A DNA stretch of 64,000 nt from Patescibacteria group bacterium (GTDB lineage Bacteria > Patescibacteriota > Minisyncoccia > Phycocordibacterales > Phycocordibacteraceae), in NCBI GenBank assembly GCA_040388985.1, contig JAZKAU010000002.1, positions 420,114 to 484,113 on the forward strand. The letters are read 5' to 3'. Below, piece by piece: positions 2,773-54,029 of this stretch. The notes under the pieces are model-generated. The model saw only the letters and a list, made by a program, of their open reading frames with translations. It was not told where the DNA came from and did no database searches. The translations under genes were made by a program, and so were the position numbers. Each line of letters begins with the position of its first letter. Position 1 is the first letter of the stretch.

Positions 2773-4017
2773 TTAATGAACACGGCCACGTTCATGGAAG
2801 GTTATGAAGAAGACGCCGGCAATGCCGATGATGCCTGCGGCGAAGAGGATAGGGGTCGTGGGCGCGAATATGGCAGCGACGGCGCCCGCGAAAAGGGGAG
2901 GGATAGACTGCGCAAGCGACTGGATGCTCGAGTTTATGCCGAGCACGCTTCCTTGCTCGTCATCATCGGAGCCTGCGCTCACGAGTCCGGTAAGGTTCGC
3001 GCCGATGAGGCCGCAGCAAATGGCGACCGGAACGGTGAGGATGTAGAGCTGTATGGTATCGGTCACGAAGTACAGGCCGGTAAGCGAAGCGCTCATGATA
3101 AGAAGTCCTCCTGCAGCGATGGCATGCGGAGTGAATCTCTTCGATAGGGGTCCGGTCACCGCTACTTGCGTTATGGCGAGCAGAGCGCCCACGAAGGCGA
3201 AGATATATCCGATATCACCCTGCTCGAAATTGAATTTCGCCACGAGGTATACGCCGAAGAAGGTGATGATGAAGGCGAAGCCGCTCTGGAAGAGGAAGGC
3301 GGTAGCGTAGAGCGCGCGATGACCGTGCGAGACGAGTGCTTCTCGTATGTTCTGGAATCCTTGCCAGGCTCGGATGTACTCCTTGGTCTTTGTCTTGAGG
3401 GTCTCCGGCAAGAGAAAGATCACGAAGAGCATGTTAATGATGGAAAGTCCGGCAGCGAGCCAGAAGGGAGTTGGAGCGCCGAAGAACCATGCTACATGCG
3501 GGTCGGACAAGAAGGCGCCGAGCAGCGGACCGATGATGAACCCGATGCCGTTTGCGGCACCGAGCAGGCCGAAGCTGCGCACGCGCCGCGAGGCAGGCGT
3601 AGAATCCGCGATCGCAGCTTGCGCCACCGCCGTATTGCCGCCCGTAAGGCCGTCAATCAGGCGAGCAATAAAAAGAAGTGGGATGCTGCGCACGAGTATG
3701 CCGATAGCGAACAGGATATAGGCGATACCGGTGCCTAGCAGCGAGAGCGCGAGTATGGGTTTGCGACCGAAGGTATCGGAAAGCTGCCCGAGGATGGGTG
3801 TCGCAATGAACATCGCGAAGGGATAGAGCGCGGTGAGCGCGCCGAGCAGGAGGTAGCCGGTGTGCGCGTCTATGGGCAAGTGATACGGATAGGCCGGATC
3901 AGCGAACAAGAGCGGAATGACGGGTATGAGGATGCCCACGCCCAGCATGTCCACCAGCACGATGGCGAAGACGACCCACAGCACCTTTCTCTCGGTAGAC
4001 TCTGCGGACGTTGCCAT
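2773..4017 (-). CDS. MFS transporter (drug:H+ antiporter-like)
   Basis: About 12 predicted TM helices. MFS signature 'SDTFGRKPIL' is in loop 2-3. Last gene of the efflux operon. Confidence 0.8.
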   Translation of the reverse strand: MATSAESTERKVLWVVFAIVLVDMLGVGILIPVIPLLFADPAYPYHLPIDAHTGYLLLGALTALYPFAMFIATPILGQLSDTFGRKPILALSLLGTGIAYILFAIGILVRSIPLLFIARLIDGLTGGNTAVAQAAIADSTPASRRVRSFGLLGAANGIGFIIGPLLGAFLSDPHVAWFFGAPTPFWLAAGLSIINMLFVIFLLPETLKTKTKEYIRAWQGFQNIREALVSHGHRALYATAFLFQSGFAFIITFFGVYLVAKFNFEQGDIGYIFAFVGALLAITQVAVTGPLSKRFTPHAIAAGGLLIMSASLTGLYFVTDTIQLYILTVPVAICCGLIGANLTGLVSAGSDDDEQGSVLGINSSIQSLAQSIPPLFAGAVAAIFAPTTPILFAAGIIGIAGVFFITFHERGRVH

Positions 4018-4058
4018 AGTTGCTCAAAGTATACGATGTCTTCGCACGCATCGCGCAG

Positions 4059-7000
4059 TTATCCTACGCTATCTTTAGTGTACTGTGCGCGTATCTTTTT
4101 CCCTGGCCATCGGAAATACAGCATCGGAATAAGAACGAGGGTGAGGAGGAGCGAGAAGGCGAGACCGGACATGATGGCGAAGGCCAGCGGCGCCCAGAAG
4201 GCGGAGGCCAAGGTGAGCGGCACCATGCCGATGACGGTCACGATCGTCGTAAGCAGTATCGGACGCAGACGTGTGCTCGCCGCTTCGACGACGACTTCTT
4301 CGAGGCTGTAGTCAGCATGCTCCCGGTGAATGCGCGCGACGGAGTCCATGAGGATGATAGCGTGATTGATGATGACACCGGCTAGCGCGATGACGCCCAG
4401 CATGGAGGTCAGCGATAGCGGCTGACCTACGAGCGTAAGGCCGGCGAAGACTCCCACCAAAGAAAGCGGAATTATCAAGAGAAGGTAGAACGACTGGCGG
4501 AAGGAGTTGAATTCGAGGACGAGTATGGCGAGCATGAGCGCAGCGCCCGCGATGAGCGCGACGAAGAGCTGCGTGAAGGAGTCCGACACGTCTTCGGATG
4601 CTCCACCGACTTTCATGGTTACCCCTTTGCCGAGCATGTCGGGGGTGAAGCGCTTCTGGAACTCATTGCTAATCTGAATGGCATTCGCACTCGCTGCGAT
4701 ATCGGCAGTCACGGTCGAGATGCGGTTACCAGCTTCGTGGGAAATGGATGTCTGAGCTGGCTCATACGTGATGGTCGCGATACTCGAAAGCGGGACCGGA
4801 CCCGCGCTTCCCGGCACGGTAAGCGCCCGTACGGCGTCGATAGAGACGTCCGTCGTCTCGCTCGGATCCTTGTAGTTGGGGTTGAGGTTCAGCTTCGTGC
4901 GCACTTCGATATCGTCCTTGCCGGTGCGTATAGACGTAGCCTTGGTGCTGAAGAGCGCCGTGCGCAGCGTATCGGAGACGACGACAGGGGAGACACCGAG
5001 CTCGCTTGCTCGGCTCGGGTCAAGCGCGACTACGAACTCGCTGCTCGCATTCTTGGTGTCGGTGTTGACCGTGACGACGCCGGGAATGTCGTTCAATACG
5101 CGCGCGGCAGCGTCAGCGCTCCCCGAAAGCTCGCCGAGATCCTCGCCGGTGAAGGTGAGGGTGACGGGGGCCGCCGCAGGCGGCCCTCCCGCAGGCTCGC
5201 CTACGGTCACGGTAGCTGACGTGATAGGCGCGAGCTCCTTGCGCAGTTCTTCTACGAAGGCAGCGCTCGTCTCCTTGTGGCCTTTAGGAAGGTTGACCGT
5301 GATGTTCCCGATATTGCCGCCTCCCGCGCCCCCGCCGAACCCGCTTCCCGCGAACGACGAGCCAGAGCCCGTCTCGCTCACGAAGGAGGCTACGTGCGGA
5401 TTAGCGTATAGCACCTCCTCTACCTCGCGCATGGAAAGATCCGTGCCGCCGAGGTCGGTGCCTTGCGGCTTCTCGATCTGCACGTAGACGAAGTCGCTAT
5501 CGTCTGACGGGAAGAAGATCGACTTGAGCAGACCGGTCGCGGGAAGCGCGAGCGCTAGCACGAAGAGCAGGGCCATGGCGACGAGGAACCGATTCTGATT
5601 CTTTCTGTTCGCGAGGAATCGGTGCAGGAAGCCCTGATACCAGGTCTTAGCTGCCTGGTTATAGCGTTCCTGGCGCATCTCGAGCTTCCCATGGGTCGGG
5701 TGTACGAAATAGACGGCAAGCAGCGGAACGATGCCGAGCGCTACGAAGATGCTCGCGAGCAGGACGAAGATGACCGTGAACGGGATGCTTGCGAGGAACT
5801 TGCCGATGATGCCTGAGAGGAAGAAGAGCGGCACGAAGACGGCGATAGTGGTGAAAGTCCCGGCGAAGAGCGGCCAGGCATATTCCCGTATGGCCGCGAC
5901 GGCTGCCTCGTCCTTATTCCCGGTCTTTATAAGCCGGGTATGGAAGGCCTCGACCACGACGATGCCGGAGTCCACCAATATACCGATGGCAAGGATGAGG
6001 GAGAAAAGCGAAACATTATTGAGCGTGTTCCCGAAGGCGACCATGCCGATGAAGGCGATAAGGAAGGAAAGGGGGATGGAGGCCGCTGCGACTAGGGATT
6101 CGCGTAGGCCAAGCGTGAAGTACAGGACGATCATCACGAGGATGACGGTCTCGATACCCGCGCGCGTAAGCTCGACGAGGCTCTTGTTCACTTCCTGCGC
6201 GCCGTCGTAGGAGATGACGGTATTGGTGCCCGCAAGGATGCCGGTCTGAAGTTCCTTGAGCTTATTCTCAACTGCCTGGCCGGTGCGTACGATGTTGCCA
6301 CCGCGGCTCTTGAATACCGTAAGGGTGAGTGATGGCTGCGCTGGGGCGCCCGCGACTGAGACGCGCGAATACGTACTCGGGTCTTCAAGCCCGTCGACCA
6401 CGTCCGCCACGTCGCGCACATGGATGCTGCTACCTGCGGCCGAAGGAATGACGACATCCGCTACCTGATCGGTAGTGGTGACGGCTGATTCGAAGCGCAC
6501 CGCATACCGTACGCCATCTACCGTGATGTTGCCTGCAGGGGAGGCGACACCGGCAGCGCGGATGGCGTTAGTGACGTCCGATAGCGAGAGGTTGTACTGG
6601 CGCAAACTTTCCTGGCGGGCGATGACCTGCACCTGGCGCGCGCGTATGCCCGAGATGCTTACCTTCGAGACACCTGGCACACGCTTCACTTCATCGCTCA
6701 CTTGCTCGCTGAGCGCGGTCAGCTCTCCGGCAGCAAGGTTTCCGGATACGGAAATGATGAGAATAGGCTGGTCAGCGAAATTGACGTCCGAGACGGTGGG
6801 AGCGGTCGCTTCCGTAGGCAGATCGGGCCGTACTTTGTCGACGGCATCCTTGAGAAGTTGTATGGATTTATCGATGTTGGCAGAAGAATCGAATTCGACC
6901 GAGACTGAGGAGATGCCTGCGCCAGAGCTCGAAGTAACTTTCGAGACATGCTCGACGCCGAGCACGCCACTCTCGATCTTGTCGGTTACGAGGCGTTCGA

Positions 7001-43795: not shown

Positions 43796-44160
43796 CGGAC
43801 CGGCACAGACGATCGCTCGGTCGCAAGATCGAGAGGAAAGTCCGAACACAGGCCAGGGCGCAAGTCCTGGCAGCAGGGTAGCGGGTAACGCCCGTCCGCA
43901 GCGATGCGCGAGGTGCGAGCAGAAACGTTCGATTCCGAAAGGATAGAAGCTCTCCAGCAGAGCGTTCTGGCGGCGACGCCAGAGTGAAACGGCTAAATCC
44001 TTACCTCTGTGCAAGGCCGTGCCGAGCCTATTCTTTAGAATAGGCTCGGAGCGCCGCTTGAATCTTCTAGTAATAGAAGATCTTAGATAGATGGTCGTCT
44101 CCGTCATCCGCCAGCTGGCGGATAGCGGAACAGAATTCGGCTTATCGTGCCGATCCGAAC
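43796..44160 (+). ncRNA. rnpB: RNase P RNA, bacterial type A
   Basis: 'GAGGAAAGTCCGaacACAGgCCAGGGcGCaAGtcCTGGcagcAGGGTAgCgGGTAACGCCcG' matches the conserved P4/P7-P10 core. The 3' 'ACAGAAttCGGCTTA' pairs with 5' 'AGTCCGAA' (P4). P1 pairs 43793-43804 with 44147-44158. A terminator follows. Confidence 0.85.
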
Positions 44161-46770: not shown

Positions 46771-48483
46771 ATGGTGCGTCGCATCCTCACCCGAATCACG
46801 GCGCCCGTGCGCAGCATTACCCGACCGATACGCGGCCTGCATCAGGCCGCGTATCTGCTTGCCGGGCTCACGCTTGCCTCGCAAGCGCTCGCCCTGCTGC
46901 GCGATCGCATCTTCGCGCACATGTTCGGTGCAGGCCAGGTGCTCGACCTCTATTACGCTGCCTTCAAGGTCCCTGACCTGGTGTATGCGCTGGTCGTATC
47001 GCTCGTGTCGGCTTACGTGCTCATCCCGAAACTATCTGAACGTATAGAACGTGAAGGGAAGCCGTCGGCGCAGAAGCTCATCTCGCAGGCGGCCACCTTC
47101 CTGCTCGCCTTCGGCGGCATCGTCTGCATCGTCTTCGCGCTCTTCGCGCCGTTCTTCCTCTTCAAGCTCTTCCCGACGTTCCAGGCGTCCGCGCACCGCG
47201 GGGAATTCATCTTCCTGGCGCGACTGCTACTCATCCAGCCAATCTTGCTCGGACTCTCGAGCGTGCTCTCAAGCGTCACGCAGATAGAGCGTCGGTTCTT
47301 CCTCTTCGCCATGTCCCCGGTCCTCTATAACCTGGGCATCATCCTCGGGACCGTCTTGCTCTATCCGAGCCTCGGGCTTGTCGGTATCGGTATCGGGGTA
47401 GTCATAGGCGCTCTCGTGCACCTGCTGCTGCACGTGCCGGTGGTGGTGCGCGCAGGCCTCATGCCGCGACTCACGCTTCCGAACATGCGGGAACTGCTCG
47501 CGCTCTTCAAGGACTCGCTACCGCGCTCGCTCGCGCTCGCTATGGGTTCGCTCACGACGCTCCTGCTGATATCGCTCGCTTCGCGCGAAGGGGAAGGCGG
47601 CGTGGCCGTATACACGCTTGCGGGGAATCTCGAAGCGGTACCGCTCTCGCTCATAGCGGCGTCGTACGTTACTGCCGCCTTCCCGGTCATGGCCGAGCAA
47701 GCGGGCGCGGCTCGGTTCGATGCATTCAAGGAAACCGTGACGGTGGCCGCGCGTCACATCATCTTCTGGTCGTCGGTCGTGACGGTCCTTGCCGTGGTGC
47801 TGCGCGCTCACATCGTACGTATCGTGCTCGGCTCCGGACAGTTCAACTGGGACGATACGCGTCTCACCGCAGCGATTCTCGCCGTGCTGGTCATGGGACT
47901 TCTCGCGCAGGGAATCATCCTCCTGTGTTCGCGCGCTTTCTACGCGGCGGGACGCTCGTGGAACCCGCTGCTCGTGCAGCTCGGGGATGCGGGCATATCG
48001 GTGGCTATCGCCTACGGCCTCGTGCATCTTGCGCGCGCCGAACCGATGATCCGCTACTTCATGGAGGCGCTGCTTCGTGTCGAAGACGTGCCGGGAGCCT
48101 CCGTGCTCTTCATCGCGCTCGGCTATACCATCGGCCAGTTCGTGATGGTTACGGTCGCGCTCTGCACGCTCAAGGTTGTGGCGGGCGGCGTCGCACGTTC
48201 GCTTACCAGATCCTTGTTCGAAGGACTCGGCGCAGCCATACTCGGCGGCGCGGCCAGCTACGGCGTGCTCACCTTCGTGGGTACTATCGCGCCGCTTACG
48301 CGGGTAGGGACCGTCTTTGCGGACGGTGCCCTTGCTGGTATGGTAGGACTTATAGTGGCTGGTAGCGTGCTCGCCCTCCTTGAGAACCGGGAATTCCGCG
48401 ACCTCGTCGACTCCCTAAAGCGCCTCACTTCGACCAAGGCTCTCCAACCATTCAGTCCTATTCATGACCGCACGGATCCGTAA
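46771..48483 (+). CDS. murJ: Lipid II flippase MurJ (MviN)
   Basis: N-terminal 'LLRDRIFAHMFGAGQVLDLYYAAFKVPDL' signature. 14 TM helices. Confidence 0.85.
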   Translation: MVRRILTRITAPVRSITRPIRGLHQAAYLLAGLTLASQALALLRDRIFAHMFGAGQVLDLYYAAFKVPDLVYALVVSLVSAYVLIPKLSERIEREGKPSAQKLISQAATFLLAFGGIVCIVFALFAPFFLFKLFPTFQASAHRGEFIFLARLLLIQPILLGLSSVLSSVTQIERRFFLFAMSPVLYNLGIILGTVLLYPSLGLVGIGIGVVIGALVHLLLHVPVVVRAGLMPRLTLPNMRELLALFKDSLPRSLALAMGSLTTLLLISLASREGEGGVAVYTLAGNLEAVPLSLIAASYVTAAFPVMAEQAGAARFDAFKETVTVAARHIIFWSSVVTVLAVVLRAHIVRIVLGSGQFNWDDTRLTAAILAVLVMGLLAQGIILLCSRAFYAAGRSWNPLLVQLGDAGISVAIAYGLVHLARAEPMIRYFMEALLRVEDVPGASVLFIALGYTIGQFVMVTVALCTLKVVAGGVARSLTRSLFEGLGAAILGGAASYGVLTFVGTIAPLTRVGTVFADGALAGMVGLIVAGSVLALLENREFRDLVDSLKRLTSTKALQPFSPIHDRTDP

Positions 48484-48537
48484 TTTTAGTTATCTATTAT
48501 AGCTCCACTAGCTCACGTCATGATATAGTATGAGGGT

Positions 48538-49374
48538 ATGGGAAGATCCAAAGTCCTTATACCTGAGGACGACTTGAAGCGACTGTATATTAGTGAGCAT
48601 TGGTCACCCGCAAAAATTGGTGATACATATGGTTGCAATTCCATCACTGTACGTTCCCGCCTGATTGAAGCCGGAATCCCATTGAAGACAAAAAGCGCCG
48701 CCCATACGCGGTATCCTAAAAGCGATTTCAATGGATCAGATATTGAAAAAGCATATATGCTGGGTTTTCGATACGGAGATTTGAACGTCTACTTGCCTCG
48801 AGGAAAATCAGAAACCATAGTCGTGCGTTCGCATTCGACGCTTGCCGTGCAAGGAAATTTGTTCAAGAGACTTTTTGAGTCCTACGGAACGATTACTGTT
48901 TCTAAGAATGTAAGAAGTACTCAAATGACTACATATCTGAATATGAGCTTCAGCTTTCTTCTCGGTAAGTATCCGACTGAAATGCGAGAATGGCTTGCCT
49001 CGTCCAATGAAAGACTTTGGTCATTTGCAGCGGGGTACATAGATGCGGAAGGAACATTCGGACTAAATCAAGGTAAGGGTAGGTTCAAGATAGACGCATA
49101 CGATTACGAAATTCTATTCGACATACATTCTCTTTTTCTTCACTCAGGCATCAATAGCAAATTTCGCGTCATTGCTCGAAAAGGAGAGAATGATTATGGT
49201 TGGATATGGAAACATGACCTTTGGAGGATCTCCGTGAATGAAGCGAAATCAATCGAAACGCTGATACACAAAAGCAAACCTTACATGCTTCACGAAAAGC
49301 GCATTACTGACGCAAATATGGTATTACAGAATATAGCTGAACGCAGAGTACATGGAACCATTGCATATCACTAG
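48538..49374 (+). mobile_element. Free-standing LAGLIDADG homing endonuclease gene (two motifs, N-terminal HTH-like region); GC ~45% versus ~60% for the flanks
   Basis: 'YMLGFRYGDLNVY' and 'AAGYIDAEGTFGL' LAGLIDADG motifs. Sharp GC drop across 48490-49380. The 3' end overlaps the lepA start by 23 nt. Confidence 0.75.
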
Positions 49375-51160
49375 TATCAGGAATTTTAGTATTGTGGCGC
49401 ATGTGGACCACGGAAAATCGACCCTCGCGGATCGCATGCTTGAACATACCGGTACGATTGAAGTACGTCATATGAAAGATCAGGTGCTTGACCGCATGGA
49501 TCTTGAGCGCGAGCGGGGCATTACTATCAAGATGCAGCCGGTGCGCATGAAGTTCAAAGCCAAGGACAGTCAGGAGTACACTCTGAATTTGATTGATACG
49601 CCAGGCCATATTGATTTTGCCTATGAGGTTTCAAGGTCCCTCTCGGCCGTCGAGGGCGTCATTCTGCTCGTCGACTCGACCCAGGGCATCCAGGCGCAGA
49701 CCCTTACCACGCTCGGTATGGCGCGTGAGGCTGGCTGCGTAATCATTCCGGTCATCTCGAAGATAGACGCGCCGGCGAGTCGCCCGGACGACGTCATCCT
49801 GGAACTCTCCGCGCTCCTTGACGTCGATCCGTCGAGCGTACTCGCGGTATCGGGTCGTACCGGTGCGGGCGTCGAGGAACTGCTCGAAGCCGTGGTCTCC
49901 CGAGTTCCTGCGCCGCGGGCGAGCGAAGGCACCGACTCGCGCGCGCTCATTTTCGATTTTTCCTTCTCAAGCCATCGCGGTATCGCCGTTTTCGCGCGCG
50001 TATTCGACGGCTCCTTCAAGAAAGGGGACGTGCTCAGGTTCTCAGCCGCTGGAGAGCGATTTACGGCCCTTGAAACGGGTGTCTTCATGCCTGACGAGAC
50101 ACCTACCGAGACGCTTGGCGCCGGCGAGATAGGCTACATCGTGACGGGCGTGAAGGAGGCGGGTGTCGTTGCCGTGGGAGACACTATACTGACCGACCGC
50201 GGCTCGCGCGAGCCGCTCGCAGGCTTCGAGCTGCCGCGTCCGGTCGTCTGGGCCTCCGTCTATCCTGAGAGCCAGGACGATCTTACGGAGCTACGCCAGT
50301 CGCTCGAGCGTCTGCGTCTTTCGGACTCCTCGCTCTCCTTCGAGGAGGAGTCCTCCGGCGTGCTCGGCCGTGGTTTTCGCTGCGGCTTCCTCGGCATGCT
50401 GCATCTGGAAATCGTCACTGAACGCTTGAAGCGTGAATTCAATCTCGAGCTCATCGTGACCATCCCGACAATCGCCTACAACGTGACGACCAAGGACGGC
50501 AAGCGCGAGACTATCTATACGCCGTCCAGGTTCCCGGCCTTCGGGGACGTCGTGAGCATCGAGGAGCCCTGGGTGAAGGTCGTGCTCATGACCCCGAACG
50601 AGTCCCTATCCGGCATGATGCAGCTTTTCCATGACCATGAGGGAGACGTAAAAGACACCGAGACACATCTGGATGGCCGTATCGAGCTTACCGCCGAGAT
50701 GCCGCTGCGCGAGCTCATGCGCGGCTTCTTCGATAAGGTGAAGAACGCCTCGAGCGGGTACGCATCCCTTTCCTACGAATTCCTTGACGAGCGTCCGGCG
50801 GACGTCGTGAAGCTCGAGATATATGTGGCTGAAGAGCCTGTGCCAGCGTTTGCGCGCGTGGTAGCGCGTCGTCGCGTCGAGATAGAAGGGGAGAAGATGG
50901 TCGAGAAGCTCGAGAAGATCCTGCCACGGCAGATGTTCGTGCTCAAGATCCAGGCGCATGCGCTCGGCCGCATCATCGCGAGTAAGTCCATCTCGGCGCT
51001 CCGCAAAGACGTCACGGGATACCTCTATGGAGGCGATATAACGCGCAAGATGAAGCTGCTTGAGAAGCAGAAGAAGGGGAAGAAGAGACGCGGTGCTCAC
51101 GCAAAAATGGATATACCGCAGGATGTTTTTATGAAAATGGTCCAGGACTCCGAGCGTTGA
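49352..51160 (+). CDS. lepA: Elongation factor 4 (LepA)
   Basis: 'IRNFSIVAHVDHGKSTLADRML', 'DTPGHIDF', and the LepA-specific C-terminal domain. Confidence 0.95.
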   Translation: MEPLHITSIRNFSIVAHVDHGKSTLADRMLEHTGTIEVRHMKDQVLDRMDLERERGITIKMQPVRMKFKAKDSQEYTLNLIDTPGHIDFAYEVSRSLSAVEGVILLVDSTQGIQAQTLTTLGMAREAGCVIIPVISKIDAPASRPDDVILELSALLDVDPSSVLAVSGRTGAGVEELLEAVVSRVPAPRASEGTDSRALIFDFSFSSHRGIAVFARVFDGSFKKGDVLRFSAAGERFTALETGVFMPDETPTETLGAGEIGYIVTGVKEAGVVAVGDTILTDRGSREPLAGFELPRPVVWASVYPESQDDLTELRQSLERLRLSDSSLSFEEESSGVLGRGFRCGFLGMLHLEIVTERLKREFNLELIVTIPTIAYNVTTKDGKRETIYTPSRFPAFGDVVSIEEPWVKVVLMTPNESLSGMMQLFHDHEGDVKDTETHLDGRIELTAEMPLRELMRGFFDKVKNASSGYASLSYEFLDERPADVVKLEIYVAEEPVPAFARVVARRRVEIEGEKMVEKLEKILPRQMFVLKIQAHALGRIIASKSISALRKDVTGYLYGGDITRKMKLLEKQKKGKKRRGAHAKMDIPQDVFMKMVQDSER

Positions 51161-51831: not shown

Positions 51832-51902
51832 GCGGGTATAGTTTAGTGGTAAAATGGGACCTTCCCAAGGTTCAGATCGGGGTTCGATTCCCCGTACCCG
51901 CA
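51832..51902 (+). tRNA. tRNA-Gly (CCC)
   Basis: Acceptor gcgggta/tacccgc. Anticodon loop ttCCCaa. T-arm ggggttcgattcccc. 71 nt, no encoded CCA. Confidence 0.85.
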
Positions 51903-51954
51903 CAAAATAAGGAAAAGGATATGTAAATATCCGATGACTATATTTTGTGACGTA

Positions 51955-52082: not shown

Positions 52083-52125
52083 AGGTAGGGCTGGGAAAGT
52101 AGATTACTATTCCAGCTATAAGCAA

Positions 52126-52782
52126 TTAATCCGAGAGATATCTCACTACGGAACTGCAATAGTCCTCGAACGAATCTCCGTTTGGAGAGAAGAATCCGTA
52201 TCCGTGTTCTTTAGCGATGCGCTCGACTCTCTTATTCTTTATGACCTCGTCCGCAAACCATTTTCGAACGGCAGAGTCGTCACCGCCGTCTTCCTCAACT
52301 ATCTTCTTGTAGACCCAGTCTTTCTTCGCATGCGCATATCCAAGGATCGTATTCAAATATGAATCATCCGTAAAGCCTACAAAGACAGCCTTTAATACTA
52401 GATGCTTGAGCGACAAGCTGTTTACGAGTTCGGGCGTTATGGCCATCCCTTCAATAGCTAAAGATGCAGTTCCCGCCTTTCGATCGTAATAATTGATTAA
52501 TCCTACGATTGTCTTCCAGGTCAGGTCCTCTTGCGTTATTTCCTGCCGAAAATGTTTCGTGTGAGATTCGTCCTTACTTTCTCCCGAACGATGGAACGAC
52601 ACATCGCCTTCGAAAGATAGGTGATTAACGTTTATGAAAGATTCGTCTGTGAGCGTGTATCTCGCAGCCTCTCGCAAAGCATCCGAGGAAATAGCGGTCA
52701 TGGGGTTTTGCCGTATCAGTTCATTGAAAATAATAGTCTTTCCTGAGCGAGGAGACCCGCCGATGAGGTATAGAGTAGTCAT
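52126..52782 (-). CDS. P-loop NTPase/kinase-like protein (Walker A 'GGSPRSGKT'), low-GC
   Basis: Walker A at residues 8-16, about 218 aa. AT-rich relative to the genome. Confidence 0.6.
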   Translation of the reverse strand: MTTLYLIGGSPRSGKTIIFNELIRQNPMTAISSDALREAARYTLTDESFINVNHLSFEGDVSFHRSGESKDESHTKHFRQEITQEDLTWKTIVGLINYYDRKAGTASLAIEGMAITPELVNSLSLKHLVLKAVFVGFTDDSYLNTILGYAHAKKDWVYKKIVEEDGGDDSAVRKWFADEVIKNKRVERIAKEHGYGFFSPNGDSFEDYCSSVVRYLSD

Positions 52783-52849
52783 GTCAATTTAGTATACGAC
52801 AGTATTTCCTGCCACTGAGGCGTCCTGATTCCAGGGTATACTTCTCATA

Positions 52850-53410
52850 ATGGAACATCGCGAAGTCGAGGTGCGCTTCCTTGAGATAGATAAAGAGCAG
52901 CTAATCGCAAAGCTGCGAGATCTGGGCGCCAAAGATTTGGGTGAGGATATGCTAGAAGAGGTGATTCTCTACGACAAGCCAATGACTTGGCAGGAGAAGG
53001 GTGGGAAAGTGCTCCGTCTGCGCACACGGCAAGGGAAGACGGTGTTGACCTATAAGCATCATGAGAAAGCATCAGTAGGAGGGACTGAGGAGATAGAATT
53101 CGAGGTCAGTGATCCTCACAAAGCCGAAGTTTTGTTAGACCGGCTCGGATATGAAGTATATAGACATCAACAGAAGAAACGACACACATTCGAGCTGGGA
53201 AGCGTAGTCGTCGATATTGATACCTGGCCCAAGATACCTACCTACGTGGAACTCGAAGGCGTCGATGAAGAGTCACTGAAAGCGACAGCTATGGCTCTCG
53301 ATCTTGACTGGAAAGACGTCGAATTGCGAAACCCACGGCTGGTGTTGGAAGAGAAGTACGGAATCCCGATCGCGACCATGCGCTGGTTTACGTTTGATGG
53401 GTTCGAGTAG
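52850..53410 (+). CDS. CYTH-domain protein (triphosphate tunnel metalloenzyme / CyaB-like)
   Basis: N-terminal 'EVEVRFLEI' (ExExK-type start) and conserved acidic and Lys/Arg tunnel residues through the length. Confidence 0.6.
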   Translation: MEHREVEVRFLEIDKEQLIAKLRDLGAKDLGEDMLEEVILYDKPMTWQEKGGKVLRLRTRQGKTVLTYKHHEKASVGGTEEIEFEVSDPHKAEVLLDRLGYEVYRHQQKKRHTFELGSVVVDIDTWPKIPTYVELEGVDEESLKATAMALDLDWKDVELRNPRLVLEEKYGIPIATMRWFTFDGFE

Positions 53411-53447
53411 GGTAGGACATTCGCCGTACCTGTTGATAACTGAAAAT

Positions 53448-53456
53448 GGTATACTG
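53448..53456 (+). promoter_or_regulatory. Extended -10 (TGGTATACT) upstream of the glutaredoxin gene
   Basis: 'aaaaTGGTATACTgag'. The same 'ggtatactgag' string occurs at the DUF192 promoter. Confidence 0.4.
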
Positions 53457-53900: not shown

Positions 53901-53972
53901 GCCCTTGTAGTTCAATGGATAGAACGGAAGTTTCCTAAATTTCTGATCCAGGTCCGATTCCTGGCAAGGGCA
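53901..53972 (+). tRNA. tRNA-Arg (CCT)
   Basis: Acceptor gcccttg/caagggc. Anticodon loop ttCCTaa. T-arm ccaggtccgattcctgg. A partial copy of the 5' end ('cctcgcttgcccttgta') lies 90 bp upstream. Confidence 0.8.
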
Positions 53973-54029
53973 CAATCCTGAAGTTCCAATATGGCTGTAA
54001 GCATAGCTATAACGAGGTATAATGTAGAT

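What the first reader, a model, noticed from the sequence alone, without database searches (positions are those of the whole stretch)
48490..49380. Low-GC free-standing LAGLIDADG homing-endonuclease gene inserted between murJ and lepA
The gene is a two-motif LAGLIDADG ORF with an HTH-like N-terminus, at ~45% GC in a ~60% GC chromosome. It is not inside an obvious intron or intein and does not interrupt another coding sequence. Its last 23 nt overlap the lepA start codon. Free-standing chromosomal LAGLIDADG genes are uncommon in bacteria and mark a recent mobile-DNA acquisition. The overlap suggests it targeted a site at the 5' edge of lepA.
Basis: partly seen in the sequence, partly recalled or inferred. 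Interest (0 to 1): 0.55.

Follow-up and report, generated by a model that had tools for sequence, protein, structure and literature searches.

The report
Homing endonuclease cassette replacing lepA start
A selfish DNA-cutting-enzyme gene has inserted into the first dozen codons of the conserved translation-factor gene lepA in this Patescibacteria genome and keeps lepA working by carrying its own re-coded copy of the gene's beginning, an arrangement I found described only for the tail ends of fungal mitochondrial genes.

Summary
The ORF is real: 48538-49374, 278 aa, GC 0.42 against ~0.6 flanks, and a 23-nt overlap with the lepA start. It is a confident single-chain LAGLIDADG fold with an N-terminal HTH. 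Both catalytic acids are invariant in 112 relatives.

It belongs to a Patescibacteria family whose members lie immediately 5' of lepA in 93 of 93 informative loci. Yet it is absent from all 80 closest lepA loci of species-representative genomes. These include relatives with LepA 87% and 82% identical, where murJ abuts lepA (empty sites). One 95%-identical pair differs by a clean ~890-bp indel. One pair shares a 94-100% identical cassette while the rest of lepA is ~70% identical.

The gene is not simply intergenic. Upstream of it lies a decayed relic of the lepA 5' end (IRNFSIIAH, window 48476-48516). The cassette's 3' end supplies a new, re-coded lepA start. No HEG-linked lepA keeps the canonical P-loop stretch IIAHIDH (0/66 against 67/80).

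Best reading: a free-standing homing endonuclease that targets the lepA P-loop codons and spreads with a replacement gene end. Low GC is a family trait, not proof of recent arrival. A sister subfamily does the same at metG. Cleavage activity is untested.

The parts
46771..48483 (+). murJ (lipid II flippase), the upstream neighbour. Its last codons and stop (48481-48483) now lie inside the lepA relic. It is context, not part of the mobile cassette.
   Evidence: Pfam MurJ E 8.4e-49. In the HEG-less relatives L016 and L017, murJ abuts or overlaps the lepA start.
48476..48516 (+). Decayed relic of the original lepA 5' coding end. ATCCGTAATTTTAGT encodes I-R-N-F-S; degenerate I-I-A-H codons follow, then the clade-conserved TAGCTCAC. 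It has no start codon and contains stops. It marks the left junction of the insertion at the His codon of AH|IDHGKST.
   Evidence: It aligns with the lepA 5' ends of HEG-less relatives. Window ATCCGTAATTTTAG against L028 ATCCGTAATTTCAG, and it matches the relics of clade members L099, L097, L007 and L177. Family-wide, a 21-nt lepA pattern occurs with <=3 mismatches upstream of the HEG in 39/63 loci, against 1.1% of shuffles and 0/189 control windows. The window copy alone has 5 mismatches, so on its own it is weak.
48521..48531 (+). Extended -10-like promoter element (TGaTATAGT, overlapping TAGTAT) ending 6-8 nt before the HEG ATG. This suggests the cassette has its own promoter and a leaderless or near-leaderless HEG mRNA (inferred).
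   Evidence: TAnnnT ends exactly 6 nt before the start codon in 41/53 distinct loci, 30 of them with a TGn extension. The two-hexamer sigma-70 scan found nothing here, so this rests on cross-locus conservation only.
48538..49374 (+). Free-standing single-chain LAGLIDADG homing endonuclease gene, 278 aa. N-terminal HTH is about aa 9-45 (48562-48672). Motif 1 is aa 72-84 with D81 (codon 48778-48780). Motif 2 is aa 163-174 with E171 (codon 49048-49050).
   Evidence: D81 and E171 are invariant in 112/112 relatives. dN/dS is 0.04-0.17 among relatives. The HTH matches DNA-binding modules of phage HNH endonucleases (PHROG E 1.6e-4).
49352..49402 (+). Replacement lepA 5' end carried by the cassette. 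A new start codon sits inside the HEG 3' end, followed by codons M1-H17 (MEPLHITSIRNFSIVAH).
   Evidence: The start codon lies in the conserved HEG C-terminal ..HGTI.. codons in clade members. Relic and replacement copies flank the HEG in many loci. In L012 against the empty-site L059, substitutions cluster in the first ~60 nt of lepA.
49382..49414 (+). Variant (presumed uncleavable) version of the inferred target site. The lepA codons N11-G21 read NFSIVAHVDHG instead of the canonical NFSIIAHIDHG.
   Evidence: Canonical IIAHIDH occurs in 0/66 distinct HEG-linked lepA alleles against 67/80 HEG-less alleles (Fisher p 9e-29). The largest base-frequency shifts lie within an 18-bp stretch.
49403..49621 (+). 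Possible co-conversion tract in lepA, with lower GC3 than the rest of the gene.
   Evidence: GC3 is 0.50-0.63 in the first three 30-codon blocks against about 0.75 afterwards. The first 80 codons give 0.59 against 0.75 for the rest, whereas typical loci show no such deficit. Suggestive only.
49352..51160 (+). lepA (EF4), the host gene whose 5' end is targeted. It is intact and full length (602 aa).
   Evidence: Pfam GTP_EFTU, EFG_III, EFG_C and LepA_C.

Best explanation
The ORF is the endonuclease gene of a site-specific selfish cassette that colonises the 5' end of lepA in Patescibacteria.

Proposed mechanism:
1. The single-chain LAGLIDADG enzyme, helped by its N-terminal HTH, recognises about 20 bp of lepA that encode the P-loop stretch (S/C)IIAHIDHG. 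It cuts at or next to the His codon. This step is inferred.
2. The break in a cassette-free chromosome is repaired from a cassette-bearing copy taken up from a relative. The left homology is upstream sequence plus the lepA relic carried by the cassette. The right homology is the conserved body of lepA.
3. The transferred cassette consists of the relic of the lepA 5' end, a -10 promoter, the endonuclease gene and a re-coded replacement lepA 5' end. The new start codon overlaps the endonuclease stop.
4. lepA therefore stays intact without any intron or intein. The re-coding (IIAHIDH to IVAHVDH in the window) makes the carrier allele resistant to its own enzyme.

Shown: the anatomy, the site specificity, the empty sites, the horizontal transfer of the cassette with flanking conversion, the purifying selection and the intact active-site residues.

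Inferred: cleavage activity, the exact target and cut position, immunity, the promoter with a leaderless transcript, and the route of DNA entry.
For: 1. Enzyme: a LAGLIDADG_3 hit above the curated cut-off. The fold model has pLDDT 92.4 and matches PI-PfuI, I-DmoI and I-AniI. Catalytic D81 and E171 are invariant in 112/112 relatives. 65 of 66 distinct copies are intact. dN/dS is 0.04-0.17.
2. Site specificity: lepA lies immediately 3' in 93/93 loci with room, across HEGs 41-74% identical, while the upstream gene varies.
3. Patchiness and empty sites: 0 of the 80 best lepA loci from species-representative genomes carry it. These include L016 and L017 (LepA 87% and 82% identical), where murJ abuts lepA. 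HEG+ and HEG- loci interleave on the LepA tree. L012 and L059 are about 95% identical on both flanks and differ by a clean ~890-bp indel.
4. Horizontal transfer: L153 and L156 share a 94-100% identical block. It runs from about 70 nt 5' of the HEG to about 100 nt into lepA. The rest of lepA is ~70% identical and the upstream region ~55%. HEG dS is 0.10 against lepA dS 1.9 for this pair.
5. Insertion inside lepA: relics such as MSNLSKIRNFVIIAH (L144), MNPENIRNFVIIAH (L115) and MENIRNFCIISH (L153) lie just 5' of the HEG. The signal is far above shuffles. The window relic aligns with lepA 5' ends of relatives.
6. Re-coded target: canonical IIAHIDH in 0/66 HEG+ alleles against 67/80 HEG- alleles, with 24 different variants.
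7. No intron: Rfam is negative in the window and in 7 other loci.
Against: - No biochemical evidence exists for cleavage, target or immunity.
- HEG and LepA distances are correlated (Mantel r 0.71). Most history is therefore vertical, or transfer is between close relatives. In the window's own clade the HEG tree mirrors the LepA tree, and no near-identical donor is known (best 74% identity).
- The window's relic is weak on its own (5 of 21 mismatches, about the shuffle mean).
- Re-coding of the replacement end could also serve to avoid recombination with the relic, rather than to confer immunity.
- The variants could partly reflect descent from one re-coded ancestor.
- The promoter is supported only by a conserved -10; the two-hexamer scan found none.
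- Nearly all copies are intact, which is also what a host-beneficial gene would show.
Confidence: 0.8

Rival explanations
1. It is a domesticated LAGLIDADG/HTH protein with a host function, such as a DNA-binding regulator or an RNA chaperone co-expressed with lepA. On this view it was inherited vertically from an ancient ancestor and lost many times. The analogy is WhiA or the LAGLIDADG maturases.
For: - Strong purifying selection, with 65/66 copies intact.
- Conserved position and translational overlap with lepA.
- HEG and LepA distances are correlated, Mantel r 0.71.
- The low GC is a stable family trait that partly tracks host GC, slope 0.46.
Against: - Both catalytic acids are invariant in 112/112 relatives. 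From background knowledge, domesticated relatives usually lose them.
- It is absent from all 80 nearest lepA loci, including sister lineages.
- The identity block is limited to the cassette, and HEG dS is 18-fold lower than lepA dS in L153/L156.
- The relic and the re-coded target are hallmarks of invasion.
- A host function and selfish spread are not mutually exclusive.
Confidence: 0.1
2. It is an intron- or intein-encoded endonuclease. On this view the upstream 'relic' is the true 5' exon of lepA, or the protein is an intein, and the element is removed by splicing.
For: - In a few loci the relic is a perfect in-frame lepA N-terminus ending exactly at the junction (L144, L115), as an exon would.
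- LAGLIDADG_3 is the Pfam family typical of intein and archaeal-intron enzymes.
Against: - No Rfam intron model hits the window at E<=10, nor 7 other loci at E<=1.
- Most relics, including the window's, lack a start codon or contain stops and frameshifts.
- Every locus has an intact replacement 5' end with its own start codon.
- There is no Hint/intein domain. The HEG is a separate ORF in another frame.
Confidence: 0.02
3. It is a one-off recent acquisition of foreign, phage-derived low-GC DNA that landed between murJ and lepA by chance, with no relation to lepA as a target.
For: - GC is 0.42 against about 0.6 in the flanks.
- A distant relative (about 30% identity) sits free-standing in a 111-kb viral contig.
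- The HTH resembles phage endonuclease DNA-binding modules.
Against: - The same position next to lepA is found in 93/93 loci from many lineages.
- The low GC is family-wide.
- There is no hit in 50,697 phage genomes and only one weak hit in IMG/VR.
- The lepA relic and the re-coded lepA end tie the element to lepA itself.
Confidence: 0.03
4. The window's copy is an inactive, fixed remnant at the late stage of the homing cycle. It would be retained only because the cassette supplies the lepA promoter and start codon.
For: - The window relic is heavily decayed.
- No close donor is known.
- Within the clade the HEG co-diverges with the host.
- Deleting the cassette would remove the lepA start.
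Against: - The ORF is full length and retains every invariant and nearly invariant family residue, including D81 and E171.
- Family-wide dN/dS is 0.04-0.17. A remnant kept only for its ends would accumulate stops in the middle.
Confidence: 0.07

Closest known systems
Mobile endonuclease ORFs (mORFs) of fungal mitochondria that create 'gene hybrids': Allomyces macrogynus atp6; Glomus atp6, atp9, cox2 and nad3; Rhizopus atp9; Mortierella cox2 (PMC3630166)
   Same: A free-standing LAGLIDADG (or GIY-YIG) endonuclease ORF inserts into a conserved protein-coding gene. It carries a foreign, diverged copy of the displaced gene end that stays in frame with the host gene. The native end is left behind as an unexpressed relic. 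The elements are patchy and horizontally transferred.
   Different: There the 3' (C-terminal) end is replaced and the relic lies downstream. Here the 5' end is replaced, so the cassette must also bring a start codon and apparently a promoter, and the relic lies upstream. The host here is a bacterial chromosome, not an organelle genome. The target here is a catalytic signature motif (the P-loop).
Free-standing homing endonucleases of T-even phages (Seg and Mob; 'intronless homing') (PMC2988022)
   Same: The endonuclease gene lies outside any intron or intein and next to the gene it cuts. It spreads by double-strand-break repair with co-conversion of flanking markers. The carrier allele differs from the susceptible allele at the target.
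   Different: Those are GIY-YIG or HNH enzymes in phage genomes. They sit between genes and cut at a distance. They act during mixed infection. They carry no relic or replacement gene end. Here a LAGLIDADG enzyme sits in a cellular chromosome, with the insertion point inside the target gene.
Single-chain LAGLIDADG endonucleases I-DmoI, PI-PfuI endonuclease domain, I-AniI (PDB 1b24, 1dq3, 1p8k)
   Same: The same two-domain alpha-beta fold with two LAGLIDADG helices, each ending in an acidic residue (Foldseek E 2e-8 to 3e-6; TM normalised to target up to 0.71).
   Different: Sequence identity is only 13-17%. Those enzymes are intron- or intein-encoded and lack the N-terminal HTH module. Their targets are rRNA or the host gene at the intron or intein site.
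LAGLIDADG endonucleases in rRNA insertion sequences of CPR bacteria (PMC11270868)
   Same: The same phylum and the same enzyme superfamily. They also target highly conserved sequence and are thought to spread by homing.
   Different: Those lie inside intron-like insertions in rRNA genes and are removed from the transcript. This one is in a protein-coding gene with no splicing element.
WhiA (a domesticated LAGLIDADG plus HTH regulator of Gram-positive bacteria). From background knowledge, not tested here.
   Same: It combines a LAGLIDADG scaffold with an HTH domain in a bacterial chromosome.
   Different: WhiA has the HTH at the C-terminus, lacks the catalytic acids, and is universally and vertically inherited. 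The present family keeps both acids, has the HTH at the N-terminus, and is patchy and mobile.

Membership tests
LAGLIDADG homing endonuclease (single-chain, two-motif) | Significant match to a LAGLIDADG profile | tested here: met
   PF14528 LAGLIDADG_3, E 3.2e-7, 30.9 bits against a cut-off of 22.5.
LAGLIDADG homing endonuclease (single-chain, two-motif) | Two LAGLIDADG helices, each ending in a conserved acidic residue | tested here: met
   GFRYGD81 and GYIDAE171. D81 and E171 are invariant in 112/112 relatives.
LAGLIDADG homing endonuclease (single-chain, two-motif) | Pseudo-dimeric alpha-beta-beta-alpha-beta-beta-alpha fold | tested here: met
   AlphaFold pLDDT 92.4 and pTM 0.81. Foldseek top hits are PI-PfuI, E-DreI, I-AniI and I-DmoI.
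LAGLIDADG homing endonuclease (single-chain, two-motif) | Site-specific double-strand cleavage of a roughly 20-bp target | not testable with these tools
   The target is inferred from the insertion junction and from the re-coded lepA alleles only.
Free-standing (intronless) homing endonuclease gene | Not embedded in a self-splicing intron | tested here: met
   No Rfam family at E<=10 in 47900-50000. None in 7 further loci. The relic is non-functional as an exon in most loci.
Free-standing (intronless) homing endonuclease gene | Not part of an intein | tested here: met
   It is a separate ORF with its own start and stop and has no Hint domain. LepA is collinear with HEG-less orthologues.
Free-standing (intronless) homing endonuclease gene | Presence/absence polymorphism at one homologous site, with empty sites in relatives | tested here: met
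   L016, L017 and L059 are empty. 0/80 nearest lepA loci carry it. HEG+ and HEG- interleave on the LepA tree.
Free-standing (intronless) homing endonuclease gene | Horizontal spread with co-conversion of flanking sequence | tested here: met
   L153/L156 share a cassette-limited 94-100% identity block that extends about 100 nt into lepA. HEG dS is 0.10 against lepA dS 1.9. For the window's own copy the result is inconclusive: there is only a low-GC3 tract.
Gene-end-replacing mobile endonuclease ORF (mitochondrial mORF type) | The endonuclease ORF is flanked by a diverged functional copy and a non-functional native copy of the same gene end | tested here: met
   The relic lies 5' of the HEG and the re-coded functional 5' end lies 3' of it. 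The orientation is the mirror image of the mitochondrial cases (5' end rather than 3').
Gene-end-replacing mobile endonuclease ORF (mitochondrial mORF type) | The hybrid gene is expressed and functional | not testable with these tools
   The lepA ORF is intact in all loci. The P-loop variants (V for I, A or S for H) are residues found in paralogous translational GTPases (background knowledge). There are no expression data.
Domesticated LAGLIDADG protein (WhiA or maturase type) | Loss of catalytic acids and uniform vertical inheritance | tested here: not met
   The acids are invariant. The distribution is patchy and the cassette has been transferred.

The most novel reading that the evidence does not exclude
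Replacing a gene's 5' end is a general third way for homing endonucleases to colonise essential coding sequence in cellular chromosomes, alongside introns and inteins. On this reading it is used by a large HTH-LAGLIDADG superfamily in the ultrasmall Patescibacteria and DPANN archaea. Different subfamilies would be aimed at N-terminal catalytic signature motifs of different housekeeping genes: the lepA P-loop here, and the metG HIGH region in a sister subfamily. If so, these elements are natural markers of homologous DNA exchange between uncultured lineages, and they continually re-code catalytic motifs of their host genes.
Probability: 0.45. Interest if true: 0.8.

Novelty: new variant of a known kind. 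Interest (0 to 1): 0.68.

Why it matters
It shows how a homing endonuclease can invade one of the most conserved stretches of a bacterial housekeeping gene, the P-loop codons of lepA, without any splicing element. The cassette carries a re-coded replacement of the gene's start.

My literature searches found this described only for the 3' ends of fungal mitochondrial genes. They found no report of a lepA-associated or free-standing LAGLIDADG element in Patescibacteria.

The family has several uses:
- It traces recombination-mediated gene flow among uncultured Patescibacteria.
- It explains otherwise puzzling substitutions in the LepA P-loop.
- It offers a set of natural meganucleases whose roughly 20-bp target can be predicted from sequence alone.
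- It warns annotators that 'hypothetical' low-GC genes fused to the starts of conserved genes may be such cassettes.

Tried and rejected
- Group I/II intron around the ORF: rejected. Rfam was negative at E<=10 in the window and at E<=1 in 7 other loci.
- Intein: rejected. It is a separate ORF with no Hint domain.
- Sequence search of the PDB: only marginal hits, E about 0.7. The fold search was needed instead.
- Second copy of the gene in the 64-kb window, or degenerate remnants in the 80 HEG-less loci: none found.
- Phage origin: no tblastn hit in 50,697 phage records, and only one hit of about 30% identity in IMG/VR.
- Standard two-hexamer sigma-70 promoter upstream: none found. Only a conserved extended -10 is seen across loci.
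- 'Truncated' 203-aa relatives as evidence of decay: rejected. L177 is full length with a GTG start that the gene caller missed. Most 'internal stops' in my own extraction were over-extension artefacts. Only L129 has a real premature stop.
- Low GC as a sign of recent arrival: rejected as a general argument, because it is a family-wide trait.
- Nearest-neighbour identity along the window's lepA 5' tract, to identify a donor: uninformative.
- The first attempt at a LepA tree with Biopython's BLOSUM distance calculator timed out. It was redone with Kimura distances.
Full report
**1. The observation**

The window encodes a 278-aa ORF at 48538-49374 on the + strand. It lies between murJ (46771-48483) and lepA (49352-51160).
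- The ORF has GC 0.422 and GC3 0.412. murJ has 0.626/0.767 and lepA 0.583/0.720.
- The last 23 nt of the ORF overlap the lepA ATG.
- Pfam gives LAGLIDADG_3 above its curated cut-off (E 3.2e-7). Both motifs are visible in the sequence.
- An AlphaFold model built on 42 relatives has mean pLDDT 92.4. It shows a three-helix HTH followed by a two-domain LAGLIDADG core.
- The best solved-structure matches are PI-PfuI, E-DreI, I-AniI and I-DmoI. Sequence-only comparison with the PDB was uninformative.
- No Rfam family matches the region even at E<=10, and there is no intein domain.
- An identical protein is annotated in a Patescibacteria MAG.

**2. A family tied to lepA**

The protein search returned 147 relatives, nearly all 275-280 aa and 41-74% identical.

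Context look-ups in seven lineages placed every one immediately upstream of lepA, overlapping its start by 4-23 nt. murJ lay upstream in most of them but not in L014/L015.

A metagenome scan with the family alignment gave 80 more loci. In total, 93 of 93 loci with enough downstream sequence have lepA directly 3' of the gene. murJ is upstream in only about half. The constant partner is lepA.

**3. Patchy distribution and empty sites**

A scan of species-representative genomes with the window's LepA returned the 80 best lepA loci. None contains the gene, and no degenerate remnants were detectable.

In the two closest loci, L016 (LepA 87% identical) and L017 (82%), murJ is followed by lepA after 6 nt or with an ATGA overlap.

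On a LepA distance tree the carriers and non-carriers interleave. The window is sister to L016, and L012 is sister to L059. L012 and L059 are about 93-97% identical on both flanks and differ by a clean ~890-bp indel. Substitutions are concentrated in the first ~60 nt of lepA.

**4. Evidence of horizontal movement**

HEG and LepA distances are correlated overall (Mantel r 0.71). There are clear exceptions.

The clearest is L153 against L156:
- 94-100% nucleotide identity from about 70 nt upstream of the HEG start to about 100 nt past its stop;
- about 70% identity in the rest of lepA;
- about 55% identity upstream.

For this pair, synonymous divergence is 0.10 in the HEG against 1.9 in lepA. 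Several other pairs show the same direction. This is the footprint of a recently transferred cassette with flanking co-conversion.

**5. The enzyme looks active**

- D81 and E171, the acidic residues ending the two LAGLIDADG helices, are invariant in 112 of 112 relatives.
- 65 of 66 distinct copies are intact.
- dN/dS is 0.04-0.17.
- The apparent 203-aa 'truncated' relatives are gene-calling artefacts of a GTG start.

**6. The insertion is inside lepA**

The 60-120 nt upstream of the HEG start contain a relic of the lepA 5' coding end. Examples are:
- L144: MSNLSKIRNFVIIAH
- L115: MNPENIRNFVIIAH
- L153: MENIRNFCIISH
- L136: MNQDHIRNFAIIAQ*

All stop at the His codon of the P-loop stretch AH|IDHGKST.

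A 21-nt degenerate lepA pattern occurs with at most 3 mismatches in 39 of 63 distinct loci. The same criterion is met by 1.1% of shuffles and by 0 of 189 control windows inside the HEG ORF.

In the window the relic is decayed but recognisable (48476-48516). ATCCGTAATTTTAGT encodes IRNFS and matches L028's ATCCGTAATTTCAGC. Degenerate IIAH codons follow, and the region aligns with the relics of clade members. The murJ stop codon now lies inside this relic.

Downstream, the functional lepA begins at a start codon embedded in the HEG's conserved C-terminal codons. It continues through a second, diverged copy of the same about 15 codons.

The cassette is therefore:
- the relic;
- a conserved TGnTAnnnT -10 element ending 6 nt before the HEG start (41 of 53 loci);
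- the HEG;
- a replacement lepA 5' end.

**7. The replacement end is re-coded at the presumed target**

The heptapeptide IIAHIDH is canonical in 67 of 80 HEG-less lepA genes. It is never canonical in 66 distinct HEG-linked genes (Fisher p 9e-29).

The HEG-linked genes show 24 different variants, including IVAHVDH (the window), IIAHVDH, IISHVDH, VVAHIDH, ILAHIDH, IVAHIDS and IIAHIDA. The base-frequency shifts fall within an 18-bp stretch.

From background knowledge, the substituted residues occur at these positions in paralogous translational GTPases: V in EF-Tu and A in EF-G. They are therefore plausibly tolerated.

I infer that the enzyme recognises the canonical sequence around the His codon, and that the variants protect carrier alleles. 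They may also reduce recombination with the relic.

Five HEG-less loci carry IIAHVDH. These could be scars of cassette loss by recombination between the relic and the replacement copy. This is speculative.

**8. How recent is the window's copy?**

Low GC is not diagnostic. HEG GC3 is below lepA GC3 in 43 of 44 lineages and tracks host GC3 with slope 0.46.

Three further points argue against a demonstrably recent arrival:
- In the window's clade the HEG tree mirrors the LepA tree.
- The nearest HEG is 74% identical.
- The relic is decayed.

One hint of import from a lower-GC donor remains. The first about 270 nt of the window's lepA have GC3 0.50-0.63 against about 0.75 for the rest. Typical loci do not show this deficit.

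**9. Comparison with known systems**

The closest precedent is the mobile endonuclease ORFs of fungal mitochondria. They replace the C-terminal end of atp6, atp9, cox2 or nad3 and leave the native end as a relic (PMC3630166). The present case is the mirror image, at a 5' end, in a bacterial chromosome.

The mode of spread corresponds to the intronless homing of phage T4 Seg and Mob endonucleases (PMC2988022). Here, however, the enzyme is a LAGLIDADG type and the insertion point is inside the target gene.

CPR bacteria are known for LAGLIDADG genes in rRNA insertions (PMC11270868). Searches combining LAGLIDADG with lepA, candidate phyla radiation or free-standing bacterial elements found no description of this family.

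**10. Wider family**

A profile search of 1.84 billion representatives found 415 clusters at E<=1e-30 and 2309 at E<=1e-10. Many carry 2-5 N-terminal HTH repeats.

A triple-HTH subfamily has more than 322 members in Patescibacteria and DPANN archaea. It lies immediately 5' of metG in the two loci I could inspect, L181 and L184.
- Both have an upstream relic of the MetRS N-terminus: MQKKFCITAAIDYVN* in L181 and ..LIPAIDYINYF* in L184.
- In both, the functional metG has a non-canonical HIGH motif: SVGS in L181 and HLGT in L184.

This suggests the strategy is general, but it rests on two loci.

**11. Verdict**

The finding is real.

Two parts need correcting. 'Recent acquisition' is unproven. The element is not intergenic; it is a cassette inserted in the lepA P-loop codons that carries a replacement gene start.

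Cleavage, the exact target and immunity remain to be shown experimentally.

Noticed in passing
L181 1500-2700 and 2688-4199; L184 2330-3604 and 3613-5064: A triple-HTH LAGLIDADG subfamily (P0269, P0320; more than 322 members in Patescibacteria and DPANN archaea) sits directly 5' of metG. Upstream lies a relic of the MetRS N-terminus (MQKKFCITAAIDYVN*; ..LIPAIDYINYF*). The functional metG has an altered HIGH motif (SVGS; HLGT). The architecture matches the lepA element.
   Followed up: partly
L176 2683-3855: A 390-aa protein with several HTH repeats plus a LAGLIDADG core is about 30% identical to the window protein. It lies free-standing among structural-looking genes of a 111-kb high-GC viral contig, the only IMG/VR relative found.
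   Followed up: partly
L008 about 4925-5000; L134 about 2925-3000: Two tandem lepA relics (for example HIRNFCIIA* followed by ..FCIISH) precede the HEG in the L008/L134 clade. This suggests successive invasions or relic import.
   Followed up: no
L019, L020, L021, L044, L067 (lepA 5' ends): These HEG-less lepA alleles carry IIAHVDH instead of IIAHIDH. They may be resistant 'scar' alleles left after cassette loss by recombination between the relic and the replacement copy.
   Followed up: no
L129 (HEG codon 10): This is the only HEG copy of 66 with a genuine premature stop (MGRKKIFLK*). It may be a degenerating copy or a sequencing error.
   Followed up: no
L182 2880-3717 / 3727-5061; L180 3001-3825 / 3868-4791: Further distant relatives lie just 5' of a miaB-like radical-SAM gene and of a corrinoid methyltransferase gene. 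I saw no clear relic. The L182 gene call misses about 40 N-terminal codons.
   Followed up: partly
window 43797-44160; L001 392-708; L153 531-923; L008 1614-2031: RNase P RNA lies a few kb upstream of the TPR-protein/murJ/lepA cluster in the window and in several distant relatives, so this is a conserved neighbourhood.
   Followed up: no
window 52100-53450: A second lower-GC stretch (0.44-0.50) holds a 218-aa P-loop kinase-like ORF (weak AAA_33 hit, minus strand) and a CYTH-domain ORF. It is flanked by tRNA-Gly (51832-51903) and tRNA-Arg (53901-53973).
   Followed up: no
L016 against the window (lepA): The LepA proteins are 87% identical, but lepA GC3 is 0.43 in L016 against 0.75 in the window. 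This is a very large compositional shift between close relatives.
   Followed up: no
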